Assembly: GCA_046155985.1 (NCBI GenBank)
Contig: JBJXGM010000129.1
Coordinates: 2,773 to 66,772, forward strand
Direction: 5' to 3'
Length of the DNA stretch: 64,000 bases
Source of the DNA: Myxococcaceae bacterium
Lineage (GTDB): Bacteria > Myxococcota > Myxococcia > Myxococcales > Myxococcaceae
Notes under the pieces: generated by a model
The model's input: only the letters and a program-made list of their open reading frames with translations
What the model was told of the DNA's origin: nothing
Databases searched by the model: none
Part shown: positions 14,001 through 15,813 of the stretch, one piece after another
How the letters are laid out: each line of letters begins with the position of its first letter
Position numbering within the stretch: the first letter of the stretch is position 1
Translations under genes and position numbers: made by a program

Positions 14001-15813
14001 GGCGTCACGTGTCATGGCCGAGGGCCGGCGTGGCATCGGTCTTCGGGAAGGTGGGGAGATTTTCAAGGCATTGCTCGGGGCAGGGTCCGCTCAACCAGAG
14101 GTCATCGTATCGACCGACTGGTCGGCGTACTTTCGCGCCGGTGGTCATGCGCCAGCGGCGTTTTCGCACGTCCTGAGCAGAGCCACGGCCACCGGGGTTG
14201 AAGGTTCATCCTTCGACGCGAAGGGCGTCTCGCTGGGCTCTTTGGAGGAGGTGGAGGCGAAGTTGCTGGAGATCTGGCGTCGCGTTCTTGGCCAGCCTGA
14301 CATCGATATTGACGCGGACTTCCATCGGCTGGGCGGGGATTCCCTGACCGCCATCGAGGTGGCGTCCGCGGCCATCCGGTCCGGCGTGCCAATCACCGCG
14401 GGGATGATTGCTGACCAACCGACGATTCGTGCGCTTTCCCGATACGTGGTTGCGGAAAAGACGAGCGCGCCCGTCAGCGCGCCCGGCAGATCGGTGAGCG
14501 GGTATGCCCCCCTCCTTCCGCTGCAGCACGCCGCTCTCGGCTTCGCCTACGATGTCGTTCTTCCTCCGCGGGTCTATGAGGTGCCGCATTCGGTTGAAGC
14601 CGAGAGCGTCGAGGAAGTTGCTCAGGAACTCTGGCGCCACCACGACGCCCTTCGGAGCAGGTTCATCCGGACCGCCTGGGGGGGATGGCGGCTTTTCATC
14701 GAGCCTGTGAATGACGCCGAGCAAATTCTCCACGTGATGGACATCTCCCAACTGCCAGCCGAACAGCACGAACTTGCGGCAATGGAGCAAATGGGCCGCC
14801 TCATCCAAGCGATGAGGCCGGACGAAGGAACCGTCGCGCGGATCGCCTATTTTGATCGGGGTCCGGAGCGTTCGCGGTGGATTATTCTAGCGGTGCATCG
14901 CCTCGTGAGTGATCAGATGTCTCAAGTCATTCTTAGCCAAGATCTCGTGATGGCTCTCGACCAGGTGATTCGCGACCGACCGATTGCGCTGCCCCACAAG
15001 ACGACCGACATTCAGACGTGGGGTGAAACACTCCAGAAACTGGCCGAGGGCGCATTTGACGACGAAGTGACCTTTCTTCACGAAACGGAAGTCCCAATTG
15101 CACCGCTTTTGACCACTCTCGGTGTGGGTCAACGCACCCAGGTGGGTGACTGTGCGCTCAACGAGAGCGAGACTCACAGCCTTCGTGCGAGAGCTGGCGA
15201 AAAATGGGGATCGCAGCTTGGGGAGGTCCTCGCCGCCGCTGTGGGATTGGCGTTGTCCCGCTGGGTGGGTCTCGGGCGGGTAGGGTTTCTGTGGACAAGT
15301 CGTGGAAGAGATCATGCCCCAAGTGGAATCGACCTGAGCCGAACTGTTGGGGGACTTTGGTGTATGTGCCCGCATGTCCTCGATTTAGACCTGGACGCGG
15401 GGCCGGCAGACGCGCTCCGAGCAGTCCAGGACTCCCATCAACGGACGCCACATGGTGGACTTGGTTTCAGCACTCACTACTACGCCGGACGAACGCCAGG
15501 CCTTTCCACCAAGCTTCGGGAACATGGGGTCACGAAAGTCATCGTCAATTTCCTGGGAGACTTGGACCGTCTTGAAGAGGTTGTGCAGTCAGATGCTGCG
15601 AGGCGAATCACGTTCGGCGCCGCCTCGAGCGAGCTCAGTCCAGGGAACGAGCCCGATCGGCCGCTGGGTTTCCCTGTGCAATTGACGCTGTCCATTGCCG
15701 GTGGCTGCCTGCGAGGGAAGGTGAGGCACTTTGGGCGCGACCCACGGGCCGTCGAACAGCTGTCGACGCTACTTCTGTCTGCCGCGCGCGAGTTTATTCG
15801 CCCCGCCAAGTGA
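8011..15813 (+). CDS. hybrid PKS/NRPS megasynthase with domain order FAAL-ACP-KS-AT-KR-ACP-C
   Basis: Approximate domains:
- FAAL-type adenylation, 8011-9700 (YLQYTSGSTHDPKGV at 8521)
- ACP1, with Ser in GLDSLG at 9880
- KS, 10063-11315 (DTACSSS Cys at 10564; EAHGTGT; GHLEAAAG)
- AT, 11620-12600 (GHSVGE at 11899; downstream motif reads LGAHS rather than HAFH/YASH)
- KR plus structural subdomain, 12700-14000 (TYLVTGGTGALG at 13456)
- ACP2, with Ser in LGGDSL at 14341
- C domain, 14500-15810 (PLLPLQ; RHHDALRSRF; C3 motif VHRLVSDQMS at 14894)

The ATG at 8011 was chosen. The 80 codons upstream in the ORF track are Arg/Pro-rich and unlike a FAAL N-terminus. Confidence 0.9.
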   Translation: MTSVCDLVGLLRERAQTSGEERAYAFLPDGEHCGQELTFAEVATAAAEIAASLQQRGMSGTSLILAFPPGLDFVVAFWGCLFAGAIPIPAPWVEATGRRRAVNRLASIVADANPRHVLSTTAASEHLSEALVSEAGRAVPSVLCLEDLATGEPDLWIAPSVDPAAVAYLQYTSGSTHDPKGVRVTHGNVLANCDFLGRVCGFSKRSTLVNWVPTFHDQGLIYGVIEPVFAGFTAVHMPSGAFVEKPVRWLRAISRYRATHAGGPNFTYDLCVRRTTPTECEGLDLRGWTNAYNAAEPVRASTLDRFGQAFGPFGFSPDAFQACYGLAEATLRVAASPLGARPRAVAFDASALEAGRAVALTPGGDGQRQTVLVGHGPTAYPGRNILLVDPSTREVLGEGQVGEVWVWGPDVAHGYLNRPEETRDVFASQAQGDDRTYLATGDLGFSYRGELFLVGRLKDVIIIRGTNHAASDIERSIEENSPGVRPGAVAALGLPGEEGEQLVVVAEVARGSVGSDFGGTLRAIQQAVVSHHDIKAEAIVLTIPGALPKTSSGKLQRSLAKMMFSRGQFETIASAMFREEASPPSMVPVSDLQEWLVKRLAAQTGLPPSQIDVHRSFSEVGLDSLGAVELMSALAGHLGRSLSATLIWDFPTPRALVDHLSVPHRTGPRHVATQIRSPAESSASVAIVGMSCRFPGAESLEAYWRLLEGGVDAITEVPPERWNADAYFSAQPAPGKTNSRWGGFLHGVDLFDRELFGMSPDAAAYTDPQHRLLLEVACEALEDANLAFHGLKGSRTGVFVGITQFDYGRLVLAPNAGSSPFAAPGTSHALAANRLSYFFDLHGPSLAIDTACSSSLVALKSACAAIQSGASEFALVGGVNLILTPEKTVALSQGTFLSPDGRCKSFDASANGYVRGEGVGVVVLKSLERAQNDGDRIYAVILGVAVNQDGRTNGLTAPNGLAQQRVIREALEAAGVAPSALGYVEAHGTGTSLGDPIEAQALGTVLGEGRSSEQPCAVGSVKSNIGHLEAAAGVAGLIKVALCVHRRTKVPSLHFQTPNPHIPFERLKLRVQQRAEPWEEPCIAGVSSFGFGGTNAHAILQGVPSLVEAPEEATPDQQPHLLLLSGANTQATKELAQRYLTHPALEMPLSDVCYVAAARRSHRSYRMAVSGRTSAEIRASLQRWVDSEPTPGVVTGDAQTGFSPRFGFLYSGQASQYVGMGRELYTTQPVFRSALDRCAELLEGVLERPLLDVMFGVESKGPSLDDTAYTQPALFAMGYALSEMWGAFGIRPHAVMGHSVGELVAACVAGLFDLEGGLRLIAARGRLMQSLEQGGRMLAVRASAERLAAWPKRFPSELSVAAFNGPRSVVLSGVGARLEEARIALEAEGLECKYLSVPLGAHSPLMDPILDAFEADAAKVTYGTPHAMIVSNLTGRVATTEELSSARYWRRHLREPVRFSEGLRALLGTGCNVLIEMGPHPTLLGIAQAEGPIPEVSCLASLRRGRPDWEQLLESVGTLFVRGGSLDWEKFYPSHRRKRVDLPLTPFRRSRCWIPEVVPDQSVPAEVGTWASWLWQMKWSERLALPAGTRPSKGRWLIVSSAERSRVIGDELRRMGGTCVYARLGSIARKVDGEHYELDFRDREAFFALLGGALSKEKFEGVIHFSEEAEPPSAGNARSTSLELEPLRYATDSALYLAQALLASPWIPRPRLWVMTCGAQAVAGSTVRLSQAPTWGLARVIAREHPELRCVAIDLDPRDFARGVAAAIAELTADGSTAVEDQRAFRQGRWYVPRILPLALSRHAEASVPVVHPDATYLVTGGTGALGRVVVQSFIELGARSLALMARKDWGPEGAQWQRDLEAAGVTLELLQGDVSIEEDVARALAQVRCWERPLKGVVHCAGVLADRELQAQAAETWDPVWAPKVLGAGHLHTHTLGDPLDLFVLFSSVSSVVGTPGQANYAAASAFLDGLAHFRQSKSLPALSINWGAWAEGGLGASRVMAEGRRGIGLREGGEIFKALLGAGSAQPEVIVSTDWSAYFRAGGHAPAAFSHVLSRATATGVEGSSFDAKGVSLGSLEEVEAKLLEIWRRVLGQPDIDIDADFHRLGGDSLTAIEVASAAIRSGVPITAGMIADQPTIRALSRYVVAEKTSAPVSAPGRSVSGYAPLLPLQHAALGFAYDVVLPPRVYEVPHSVEAESVEEVAQELWRHHDALRSRFIRTAWGGWRLFIEPVNDAEQILHVMDISQLPAEQHELAAMEQMGRLIQAMRPDEGTVARIAYFDRGPERSRWIILAVHRLVSDQMSQVILSQDLVMALDQVIRDRPIALPHKTTDIQTWGETLQKLAEGAFDDEVTFLHETEVPIAPLLTTLGVGQRTQVGDCALNESETHSLRARAGEKWGSQLGEVLAAAVGLALSRWVGLGRVGFLWTSRGRDHAPSGIDLSRTVGGLWCMCPHVLDLDLDAGPADALRAVQDSHQRTPHGGLGFSTHYYAGRTPGLSTKLREHGVTKVIVNFLGDLDRLEEVVQSDAARRITFGAASSELSPGNEPDRPLGFPVQLTLSIAGGCLRGKVRHFGRDPRAVEQLSTLLLSAAREFIRPAK

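What the first reader, a model, noticed from the sequence alone, without database searches (positions are those of the whole stretch)
14500..15813. Terminal condensation domain with a non-canonical active-site motif (HRxxxDQ instead of HHxxxDG)
The C-terminal ~435 aa of the megasynthase carry C-domain motifs: C1-like PLLPLQHAAL and C2-like RHHDALRSRF.

The C3 motif reads A-V-H-R-L-V-S-D-Q-M-S (nt 14891-14923). The second His of HHxxxDG is replaced by Arg and the Gly by Gln. That second His is usually regarded as the catalytic residue.

No TE, reductase or further A or PCP domain follows. This domain is therefore the only candidate release catalyst.

The substitution suggests one of three things: a specialised acceptor such as a peptide or hydroxyl nucleophile, a different mechanism, or a docking or structural role.
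Basis: partly seen in the sequence, partly recalled or inferred. Interest (0 to 1): 0.6.

Follow-up and report, generated by a model that had tools for sequence, protein, structure and literature searches.

The report
Odd release domain on lanthipeptide-linked PKS
The last domain of this fatty-acid-extending synthase is a rare offshoot of peptide-epimerase domains that probably attaches the lipid to a ring-forming ribosomal peptide, and in this genome alone its key histidine has become arginine, so it may work differently or not at all.

Summary
The 2680-aa synthase (FAAL-ACP-KS-AT-KR-ACP) ends in a condensation-superfamily domain. No other HHxxxD site exists in the domain.

The domain is not an ordinary C domain. 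By sequence, predicted fold and tree it sits in the epimerization (E) clade. There it forms a tiny, well-supported group, here called C*, with three distant relatives at 30-33% identity. All four have lost the E-domain motif EGHGRE and carry SD(Q/A) instead of VDG. So Gly-to-Gln is a group trait. The three relatives keep HH, so His-to-Arg (one A-to-G transition) is unique to this genome.

One relative ends an orthologous FAAL-PKS (52% identity over FAAL-ACP-KS). That gene sits beside LanB, LanC, a C39 exporter and a similar Gly-Gly/Cys-rich precursor. The PKS-C*/class I lanthipeptide link is therefore conserved.

No TE, GNAT or second C-family domain is present. Known PKS-RiPP couplings use GNATs.

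Best reading: C* off-loads the acyl chain from ACP2 onto the lanthipeptide. Whether the Arg copy is active is open.

The parts
8011..15813 (+). Megasynthase gene. The longest ORF starts at 7771; the probable start is Met81 at 8011. Architecture: FAAL-ACP1-KS-AT-KR-ACP2-C*.
   Evidence: P0003 (2600 aa) is the gene call on record. KS (DTACSSS, EAHGTGT, NIGHLE), AT (GHSVGE), KR and both ACP (DSL) motifs are intact in the translation.
14242..14448 (+). ACP2, the carrier domain that would present the 3-hydroxyacyl chain to the terminal domain (Ser in GGDSL, residue 2190 of the 2680-aa ORF).
   Evidence: Second PP-binding stretch in Pfam; coordinates.
14500..15810 (+). C* domain: a divergent epimerization-like member of the condensation superfamily (residues 2244-2680).
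   Evidence: PF00668 E 6e-23. Best PDB sequence hits are all E domains. A profile of the group scores E domains at 113-187 bits and ordinary C domains at 49 or less. AF2 model has pLDDT 87; Foldseek ranks 1-13 are E domains, best TM 0.84 to 2xhg. The four-member clade has SH-aLRT 100.
14896..14916 (+). Active-site motif H2376-R2377-L-V-S-D-Q (CAT CGC CTC GTG AGT GAT CAG). The Arg codon is at 14899-14901; G14900 is the single base that separates it from His (CAC).
   Evidence: alignments.
15292..15312 (+). W-T-S-R-G-R-D, the position of the E-domain catalytic motif (L)EGHGRE. The Glu and His are absent here and in all three relatives.
1362..1604 (-). Candidate precursor peptide (80 aa). The leader ends in Gly-Gly; the core is Cys/Ser/Thr-rich and contains no Lys.
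   Evidence: It has the same layout as the 81-aa gene next to the orthologous PKS in L007.
1759..3168 (+). LanC cyclase.
   Evidence: PF05147 E 6e-32; 32% identical to the L007 LanC.
6964..7713 (-). Sfp-type phosphopantetheinyl transferase, divergent from the PKS gene.
   Evidence: PF01648 and PF22624.
15857..17440 (+). GAF-domain protein with a single-TM, HlyD-like C-terminus (export adaptor). It is not an acyltransferase.
17421..19640 (+). LanT-type ABC exporter with an N-terminal C39 peptidase. Its start overlaps the end of the previous gene.
   Evidence: PF03412, PF00664 and PF00005.
19637..22885 (+). Full-length LanB dehydratase with glutamylation and elimination domains. Its start overlaps the stop of lanT.
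   Evidence: PF04738 E 6e-160 and PF14028 E 2e-61; 39% identical to the L007 LanB.
22882..23823 (+). Sensor-less sigma-54 activator that closes the operon.
   Evidence: PF00158 and HTH_8.

Best explanation
The terminal domain belongs to a rare group that split off from NRPS epimerization domains, here called C*. The group gave up the epimerase machinery and serves as the off-loading acyltransferase of a FAAL-primed one-module PKS.

Proposed pathway:
1. The FAAL loads a fatty acid on ACP1.
2. KS and AT add one C2 unit and KR reduces it. These steps are inferred from intact domains.
3. ACP2 presents the 3-hydroxyacyl thioester at the donor face of C*.
4. C* transfers the chain to a nucleophile of the LanB/LanC-modified peptide encoded in the same cluster. 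The most likely acceptor is the alpha-amine exposed when the C39 peptidase cuts after Gly-Gly; a Ser/Thr hydroxyl is the alternative. The core has no Lys. This step is inferred from gene linkage that is conserved in a second, distantly related cluster.
5. The product leaves through the LanT/HlyD-like exporter.

Gly-to-Gln in the motif is normal for this group. His-to-Arg is specific to this genome. I take the Arg copy to be still in use, with Arg positioning the substrate or stabilising the oxyanion rather than acting as a base, and probably with altered kinetics or acceptor preference. This last step is the weakest.
For: Placement in the E clade, but not an epimerase:
- PDB sequence hits are only E domains at 1e-22 to 1e-15; an ordinary C domain scores E = 0.39. 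The profile search agrees.
- Foldseek ranks 1-13 are E domains.
- In the tree C* is a clade with SH-aLRT 100 inside the E superclade.
- An E-only HMM scores true E domains at 475-570 bits, C* at 165-249 and ordinary C domains below 165.
- All four C* members lack EGHGRE and vary the FNY Tyr.

Donor context:
- Every C* member with usable DNA context (three of four) follows or neighbours FAAL plus a carrier protein. This holds for the window, P0259 and the stand-alone P0254, which sits by FAAL, ACP and an A-domain gene. The fourth, P0214, lies on a 1.8-kb contig with no usable context.

Link to the lanthipeptide:
- In the window PKS, adaptor, lanT, lanB and the activator form one co-directional array. 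The last four have overlapping stop/start codons.
- Locus L007 carries an orthologous PKS (52% identity over 1189 aa of FAAL-ACP-KS). It lies next to LanB (39%), LanC (32%), a C39-ABC exporter and an 81-aa Gly-Gly/Cys-rich precursor.

No other release catalyst:
- This is the only PF00668 hit in the genome.
- No TE or GNAT lies in either cluster.

Not decaying:
- The 8-kb ORF is open and all other catalytic motifs are intact.
- At 70 columns conserved in E domains the query deviates 26 times, against 28, 28 and 31 for its HH relatives.
- Its branch is no longer than theirs.
- The gene is kept in a 3.9-Mb genome, while most of its larger family relatives are 9-13 Mb.

Mutating the second His does not always abolish C-domain activity (PMC11546977).
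Against: - The second His is kept in 99% of homologues and in all three closest relatives.
- The one well-studied natural HR variant, the glycopeptide X domain (HRxxxDD), is catalytically silent (PMC11546977).
- The change is a single transition. It could be a very recent knock-out or a consensus error in a 164-contig assembly, and reads could not be inspected.
- No product, acceptor or activity is known for any C* member.
- E domains are usually described as closed on the acceptor side (my recollection of the TycA E structure paper, not checked here). I could not inspect the model's tunnels.
- The group has only four members, and only two show lanthipeptide linkage.
- The AF2 alignment was mostly E domains, which biases the model towards that fold variant.
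Confidence: 0.5

Rival explanations
1. The family function is as above, but this copy is catalytically dead or only a scaffold. His-to-Arg would block the active site, as in the glycopeptide X domain. The domain would then merely dock ACP2 or the PKS to LanB/LanC/LanT, or the pathway has recently been inactivated and the chain is lost by hydrolysis.
For: - There is an HRxxxD precedent in the inactive X domain.
- His is kept in the three relatives and in 99% of E-type domains.
- The change is one transition.
- C* is the most diverged part of the PKS: 30% identity against 52% for FAAL-ACP-KS.
Against: - There are no other signs of decay. The ORF and all other motifs are intact, and the query keeps more conserved positions than its HH relatives.
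- A dead release step would stall an 8-kb enzyme that a small genome still maintains.
- There is no sequence kinship to X domains: no hit at E <= 10, and Foldseek TM is only 0.63-0.70 at rank 20 or lower.
- No trans-acting oxygenase partners lie in the cluster.
Confidence: 0.27
2. The Arg codon is an assembly or consensus error, or a minority variant. The organism really encodes HHxxSDQ like its relatives.
For: - It is a single-base difference (CGC against CAC) in a fragmented metagenome-type assembly of 164 contigs.
- The sequence is known from one contig only.
Against: - Substitution errors in consensus assemblies are rare.
- Nothing else in the ORF looks damaged.
Confidence: 0.08
3. C* off-loads the chain to something other than the lanthipeptide, such as water, a small amine or alcohol, or a lipid head group. 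Alternatively it acts on the ACP-bound chain itself (epimerase-like C-alpha deprotonation or dehydration). In either case the PKS and the lanthipeptide genes are only neighbours.
For: - The stand-alone relative P0254 sits with FAAL, ACP and an A-domain gene, with no Lan genes within 10 kb.
- C-domain chain release to small molecules is known, for example the enacyloxin release domain 6cgo among the fold hits.
- E ancestry means an alpha-proton chemistry scaffold.
Against: - PKS-C* lies inside or next to a LanA/B/C/T set in two clusters whose proteins are only 30-52% identical. The linkage has therefore been kept over long divergence.
- The window shows an operon-like arrangement.
- Both epimerase catalytic residues are missing, and a malonate-derived 3-hydroxyacyl chain has no C-alpha stereocentre to invert.
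Confidence: 0.15

Closest known systems
NRPS epimerization (E) domains (TycA E 2xhg, GrsA E 5isw, TycB3 E 6ta8, PvdL E2, BacC E)
   Same: - Nearest relatives by sequence (E 1e-22; profile 113-187 bits), by predicted fold (TM up to 0.84) and by tree position.
- They share the motifs E1 (PLxPxQ), the C2-like HHDALRxRF, KTTxxxxW, E3, E5 core (DLSRTVG), E6 (GLG) and E7 (xNxLG).
   Different: - The second His of HHxxxDG is Arg.
- The EGHGRE Glu and His are gone (TSRGRD), and WFT of E5 and Tyr of FNY are changed.
- It follows a PKS ACP carrying a 3-hydroxyacyl chain, not a PCP with an aminoacyl or peptidyl chain, and no downstream DCL domain exists.
- An E-only HMM gives 249 bits, against 475-570 for true E domains.
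X domain of glycopeptide NRPSs (Tcp12; 4tx2, 4tx3, 6m7l), motif HRxxxDD
   Same: - It is a condensation-fold domain at the end of an assembly line in which the second His is Arg and the Gly is replaced.
- This is a precedent for a non-catalytic, partner-recruiting role (PMC11546977).
   Different: - There is no detectable sequence kinship (not listed at E <= 10).
- Fold rank is 20 or lower, TM 0.63-0.70.
- X sits before a TE and recruits P450 Oxy enzymes. Here there is no TE and no P450.
- The HH state of the three relatives argues for a catalytic ancestor.
Chain-releasing C domains acting on PKS or ACP-bound acyl chains (enacyloxin Bamb_5915-type domain 6cgo, PapA5 1q9j, SgcC5 4znm)
   Same: The proposed job is the same: a condensation-fold enzyme takes an acyl chain from a PKS carrier protein and passes it to an external nucleophile instead of a TE.
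   Different: - These are stand-alone proteins with intact HHxxxDG.
- They are only remotely related: 39 bits for 6cgo and 23.8 bits for 4znm, and E 0.029 for PapA5.
- Their acceptors are small molecules or lipids, not ribosomal peptides.
Hybrid PKS/FAS-RiPP lipopeptides (goadvionins, lipolanthines such as microvionin, lipoavitides, selidamides/nostolysamides)
   Same: A ribosomal, lanthionine-type peptide cluster carries its own fatty-acid or polyketide machinery. The expected product is an acylated peptide.
   Different: - In the systems covered by the review read here (goadvionins, lipolanthines, selidamides/nostolysamides) coupling is done or proposed by GNAT-family acyltransferases such as GdvG, and the lipolanthine peptides are made by class III-type enzymes (PMC9811515; PMC7540663 abstract). 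The coupling enzyme of lipoavitides was not checked.
- Here the peptide machinery is class I (LanB and LanC), no GNAT is present, and a condensation-fold domain fused to the PKS is the candidate coupler.
- Four full-text searches aimed at this combination found no description of it.
NRPS/PKS clusters with 'lantibiotic dehydratase' genes (threopeptin, SnaE; PMC11212132)
   Same: A LanB-family gene is co-localised with a PKS or NRPS.
   Different: Those clusters have no precursor peptide, and the LanB-like enzyme forms amide bonds on the assembly-line product. Here a Gly-Gly-leader Cys-rich precursor, LanC and a C39 exporter are all present in both clusters.

Membership tests
Condensation-domain superfamily (PF00668) | Significant match to the family profile | tested here: met
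   81.6 bits against a cut-off of 30.6, residues 2268-2575; 86.3 bits in the genome scan.
Condensation-domain superfamily (PF00668) | Two-lobed chloramphenicol-acetyltransferase-like fold | tested here: met
   AF2 model has pLDDT 87.3 and pTM 0.87. There are 246 PDB matches with E <= 0.001; the top 50 listed are all C/E/X/Cy-type domains. Caveat: the input alignment was made of family members.
Condensation-domain superfamily (PF00668) | HHxxxDG active-site motif | tested here: not met
   The motif reads HRLVSDQ. The first His and the Asp are kept; the second His is Arg and the Gly is Gln.
Epimerization (E) domains | Closest sequence and fold relatives are E domains | tested here: met
Epimerization (E) domains | Catalytic pair: second His of HHxxxDG plus Glu of EGHGRE | tested here: not met
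   The residues are Arg and Thr respectively. The Glu is also absent in the three relatives. The role of these residues is taken from the literature on GrsA and TycA E domains (Stachelhaus & Walsh 2000; Samel et al. 2014). Both papers appear in the reference list of PMC11546977, but their content is from my own knowledge.
Epimerization (E) domains | Placed after a PCP bearing an alpha-amino acyl or peptidyl chain and followed by a D-specific C domain | tested here: not met
   It follows the KR-ACP of a PKS module, and the protein ends after the domain.
Glycopeptide X domain | HRxxxDD-type degenerate motif | tested here: inconclusive
   HRxxxDQ is similar at three of four defining positions, but the Q is a subfamily trait shared with HH-bearing relatives.
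Glycopeptide X domain | Sequence or fold kinship with Tcp12-type X domains | tested here: not met
   Absent from PDB sequence hits at E <= 10. Foldseek ranks are 20, 35 and 42, TM 0.63-0.70, below all E domains.
Glycopeptide X domain | Lies between the last PCP and a TE, with P450 (Oxy) partners in the cluster | tested here: not met
   No TE follows. No P450 is found among the 18 longest cluster ORFs scanned.
C* group proposed here (query, P0259, P0214, P0254) | Monophyly, with shared motifs H[HR]xxSD[QA]xS, FxWxxxGR in place of EGHGRE, and GIDLSRT | tested here: met
   SH-aLRT 100 on a stem of 1.26. There are 57 invariant columns among the four sequences at 30-33% identity. The C* HMM scores members at 664-692 bits and E domains at 224 or less.
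C* group proposed here (query, P0259, P0214, P0254) | Acyl transfer from FAAL-loaded ACP to an acceptor | not testable with these tools
   Only context is available: FAAL plus a carrier protein lie next to three of four members. The fourth contig is 1.8 kb.
Hybrid PKS-RiPP lipopeptide pathways (goadvionin/lipolanthine type) | RiPP precursor and maturases clustered with a dedicated PKS or FAS | tested here: met
   The window carries LanA, LanC, PPTase, PKS, LanT and LanB. The same set is found in L007.
Hybrid PKS-RiPP lipopeptide pathways (goadvionin/lipolanthine type) | GNAT-family enzyme couples acyl-ACP to the peptide | tested here: not met
   No GNAT hit among the cluster ORFs of the window or the called genes of L007. 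The known GNAT role is taken from PMC9811515.

The most novel reading that the evidence does not exclude
C* is a previously unrecognised functional class of the condensation superfamily. It is derived from epimerization domains and ligates carrier-protein-bound fatty or polyketide chains to ribosomally made class I lanthipeptides. That would be a GNAT-independent route to lipolanthipeptides. The Arg-bearing copy here would show that the reaction does not need the canonical second histidine.
Probability: 0.3. Interest if true: 0.78.

Novelty: new variant of a known kind. Interest (0 to 1): 0.6.

Why it matters
Lipidation strongly changes the activity of antimicrobial peptides. Natural lipidated RiPPs are few, and in the systems I checked the lipid is joined by GNAT enzymes.

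A condensation-fold domain fused to a minimal FAAL-PKS would be a compact, portable 'lipid-on-lanthipeptide' module for pathway engineering. It would also extend the known functional range of the C/E superfamily, as an epimerase scaffold re-used for off-loading.

The natural His-to-Arg variant sits next to His-bearing orthologues. This gives a ready-made test of the long-debated role of the second histidine.

If the Arg copy turns out dead or an assembly error, the specific finding becomes ordinary. The conserved PKS-C*/lanthipeptide cluster type would still be worth following.

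Tried and rejected
1. A true HHxxxDG elsewhere in the domain: none exists.

2. Ordinary C subtype (LCL, DCL or starter): rejected. Ordinary C domains score E 0.39 / 49 bits or less and form a separate clade.

3. Functional epimerase: rejected. Both catalytic residues are missing, the carrier and substrate are wrong, and there is no downstream C domain.

4. X-domain membership: rejected on sequence, fold rank and context.

5. Another release enzyme:
- There is no second C-family domain in the genome.
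- PF00975 hits occur only on unlinked contigs. The best is 38.5 bits (cut-off 26.4) in a 305-aa frame on contig C61.
- The downstream 'GAF' gene is an export adaptor.

6. The search for more C* members failed to enlarge the group:
- the word-indexed search with the query region and with the P0259 region returned only NRPS E domains;
- the alignment search returned one ordinary PCP-E protein;
- 40 relatives and 400 genomes of the phylum gave a best score of 224 bits, against 675 for self;
- the genome contigs pattern scan gave 6 loci, and the only one I inspected (L009, the best) is an ordinary E domain;
- none of 80 metagenome loci scored better with the C* HMM than with the E HMM.
The exhaustive representative search lists only the top 150 by summed score. 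Single-domain members scoring below about 166 bits could therefore be hidden.

7. The first AF2 run with the 4-row alignment was unusable (pLDDT 56). It was replaced by a 19-row alignment.

9. Model coordinates are not exposed, so the Arg position and tunnel geometry could not be inspected.

Full report
**What is there.**
The window carries a 2680-codon open frame at 7771-15813. The gene call on record starts at Met81, nt 8011, giving 2600 aa. Pfam resolves it as fatty acyl-AMP ligase, ACP, KS, AT, KR, ACP and Condensation, and the protein ends with that last domain.

The C3 position reads A-V-H-R-L-V-S-D-Q-M-S, encoded at 14890-14922, one base off the coordinates given.

HMMER alignments to solved structures put HRLVSDQ exactly on HHLVVDG of TycA and GrsA. 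An alignment with 150 homologous domains does the same. The only other HH in the domain is the C2 motif HHDALR.

**What kind of domain it is.**
It is not an ordinary condensation domain. Four lines of evidence place it with epimerization domains.
- Against all PDB sequences, the only significant hits are epimerization domains (TycA, GrsA, TycB3, PvdL, BacC) at 1e-22 to 1e-15. A normal C domain reaches only E = 0.39.
- A profile of the domain and its three nearest relatives gives 113-187 bits to E domains and 54 or less to everything else. PapA5 is at E 0.03, and the glycopeptide X domain is not listed at E <= 10.
- An AlphaFold2 model built with a 19-row alignment is confident (pLDDT 87, pTM 0.87). 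Its 13 best Foldseek matches are all E domains (TM up to 0.84), with X domains at rank 20 and below. The input alignment consisted mainly of E domains, which favours this outcome.
- A maximum-likelihood tree of 89 domains separates 30 ordinary C domains from an E superclade with full support.

Inside the E superclade the query forms a clade with three proteins (SH-aLRT 100, stem length 1.26). That clade lies near a few other atypical E-like domains that also lack the motif EGHGRE.

**The small group, here called C*.**
The three relatives are:
- P0259, the terminal domain of a 2841-aa FAAL-ACP-KS-DH-ER-KR-ACP synthase;
- P0214, a stand-alone 423-aa protein;
- P0254, a stand-alone 449-aa protein.

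They are 30-33% identical to the query over the full length, with 57 invariant columns. All four share:
- H[H/R]xxSD[Q/A]xS in place of HHxxVDGVSWR;
- FxWxxxGR in place of (L)EGHGRE;
- an invariant GIDLSRT;
- VN(F/Y/H)(L/I)G in place of FNYLG.

Two conclusions follow. First, the E-specific catalytic motif is gone in the whole group. With a malonate-derived 3-hydroxyacyl chain on a PKS ACP and no downstream C domain, epimerization is not the function. The Arg is private to this genome: the three relatives have HH, and the His is kept in 99% of 147 E-type homologues. CAT CGC differs from CAT CAC by one transition, at nt 14900.

An E-only HMM scores true E domains at 475-570 bits, C* members at 165-249 and ordinary C domains below 165. 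C* is therefore a strongly remodelled offshoot of the E lineage.

The group is rare. No further member turned up in any of these searches:
- 40 relatives and 400 genomes of the phylum (best 224 bits, against 675 for self);
- a pattern scan of 185,579 species genomes;
- 80 metagenome loci;
- the three word-indexed protein searches.

The exhaustive representative search lists only the 150 best summed scores, so weaker single-domain members may be hidden.

**Context.**
The organism is an uncultured member of the Myxococcaceae. Its DnaN is 74% identical to Myxococcaceae MAGs and 73% to Citreicoccus. Its genome is unusually small at 3.9 Mb.

The synthase lies inside a class I lanthipeptide cluster, which contains:
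- an 80-aa precursor with a Gly-Gly leader and a Cys/Ser/Thr-rich core (1362-1604, minus strand);
- LanC;
- an Sfp-type PPTase divergent from the PKS;
- downstream of the PKS, a GAF/HlyD-like adaptor, a C39-peptidase ABC exporter, a full-length LanB and a sensor-less sigma-54 activator.

The decisive comparison is locus L007, which encodes P0259. Its FAAL-ACP-KS part is 52% identical to the window's over 1189 residues. The gene sits divergently next to LanB (39% identity), LanC (32%), two HlyD-like genes and a C39-ABC exporter. It is followed by an 81-aa gene with the same architecture: a leader ending in VVGG, then a Cys-rich core. The pairing of a FAAL-PKS ending in C* with a class I lanthipeptide set has thus been kept across deep divergence.

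The stand-alone P0254 lies with separate FAAL, ACP and adenylation genes, and no Lan genes within 10 kb. What unites the contexts is therefore an acyl-carrier-protein donor loaded by a FAAL.

Neither cluster has a thioesterase, reductase or GNAT. The window's genome has no other condensation-family domain at all. PF00975-type hits occur only on unlinked contigs, the best 38.5 bits against a cut-off of 26.4.

**Most likely mechanism.**
Shown: the domain order, the intact catalytic motifs of FAAL, KS, AT, KR and both ACPs, the E-clade origin with loss of epimerase residues, and the conserved gene linkage.

Inferred:
1. The FAAL loads a fatty acid.
2. One malonyl extension and a ketoreduction give 3-hydroxyacyl-ACP2. 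In L007 the chain would be saturated, because DH and ER are present.
3. C* passes the chain to the LanB/LanC-modified peptide.

Neither core contains Lys. The acceptor would therefore be the alpha-amine freed by the cytoplasmic C39 cut after Gly-Gly, or a Ser/Thr hydroxyl. For comparison, GdvG in goadvionin biosynthesis acylates the N-terminus after leader removal (PMC9811515).

Known PKS/FAS-RiPP couplings use GNAT enzymes and class III-type lanthipeptide machinery. Four full-text searches aimed at this combination found no description of a condensation-fold coupler or of a class I lanthipeptide with its own PKS. The many NRPS/PKS clusters with 'lantibiotic dehydratase' genes are a different case, because they lack precursor peptides (PMC11212132).

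**Is the Arg copy active?**
For activity:
- The 8-kb frame and every other catalytic motif are intact.
- At 70 columns conserved among E domains the query deviates 26 times, fewer than its HH relatives at 28, 28 and 31. Its branch is no longer than theirs.
- A streamlined genome keeps the gene and its PPTase.
- Mutation of the second His does not always abolish C-domain activity, and its role is debated (PMC11546977).

Against activity:
- The His is almost universally conserved, including in all three relatives.
- The best-known natural HR variant, the X domain (HRxxxDD), is inactive.
- A single transition can be very recent, or an assembly error.

My odds:
- off-loading to the lanthipeptide with the Arg copy still functional, about 0.5;
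- same family role but this copy dead or only docking, about 0.27;
- a different acceptor or chemistry, about 0.15;
- base-call error, about 0.08.

**Verdict.**
The domain belongs to a rare, epimerase-derived off-loading group attached to FAAL-primed synthases. In two independent clusters that group is tied to class I lanthipeptide biosynthesis, with no GNAT present.

I class it as a new variant of a known kind, combining hybrid PKS-RiPP lipopeptide pathways with C-domain-mediated chain release. The private His-to-Arg change is unexplained and needs a read check and a simple mutant comparison.

Noticed in passing
L007:1-19424 (Logan SRR31724203 contig): This is an orthologous cluster. LanB, LanC, two HlyD-like genes, a C39-ABC exporter and a luciferase-like monooxygenase lie on one strand. 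A FAAL-ACP-KS-DH-ER-KR-ACP-C* synthase lies on the other, followed by an 81-aa Gly-Gly/Cys-rich precursor gene. This PKS has no AT domain by Pfam (so it is trans-loaded) but has DH and ER, so its lipid would be saturated rather than 3-hydroxylated.
   Followed up: partly
L008:5255-11350 (GCA_034680565.1): The stand-alone C* protein P0254 lies with separate FAAL, ACP and adenylation-enzyme genes and several genes with no Pfam hit. It may be a dissociated version of the same acyl-transfer chemistry with an unknown acceptor.
   Followed up: no
window 7771-8010: The first 80 codons of the longest ORF are Arg/Pro-rich and have no homology. The gene call on record starts at Met81 (nt 8011), 297 nt from the divergent PPTase gene.
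   Followed up: no
window 11632-12573 (AT domain): The AT specificity position reads LGAH(S), which is neither HAFH nor YASH. The extender unit is therefore assumed, not shown, to be malonyl.
   Followed up: no
proteins P0065, P0128, P0172, P0174, P0175, P0247: Several NRPSs carry E-like domains that also lack EGHGRE, some terminal and some in tandem. They group loosely with C* at the base of the E clade (SH-aLRT 85-92). One of them (P0175, residues 1017-1427) also reads HRLIVDR. This may be a broader, undescribed set of non-epimerizing E-like domains.
   Followed up: partly
whole genome G000: This Myxococcaceae genome is only 3.9 Mb (99.6% complete by the tool's estimate). Most relatives in the same family that carry NRPS genes are 9-13 Mb. 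It contains a single condensation-family domain, so this cluster may be its only assembly-line pathway.
   Followed up: partly
window 3279-6726: A signal-peptide protein without family hits, a DUF4143 ATPase and a vapBC (PIN) pair separate lanA/lanC from the PPTase and PKS. The cluster is split by apparently unrelated cargo, yet all biosynthetic genes are intact.
   Followed up: no
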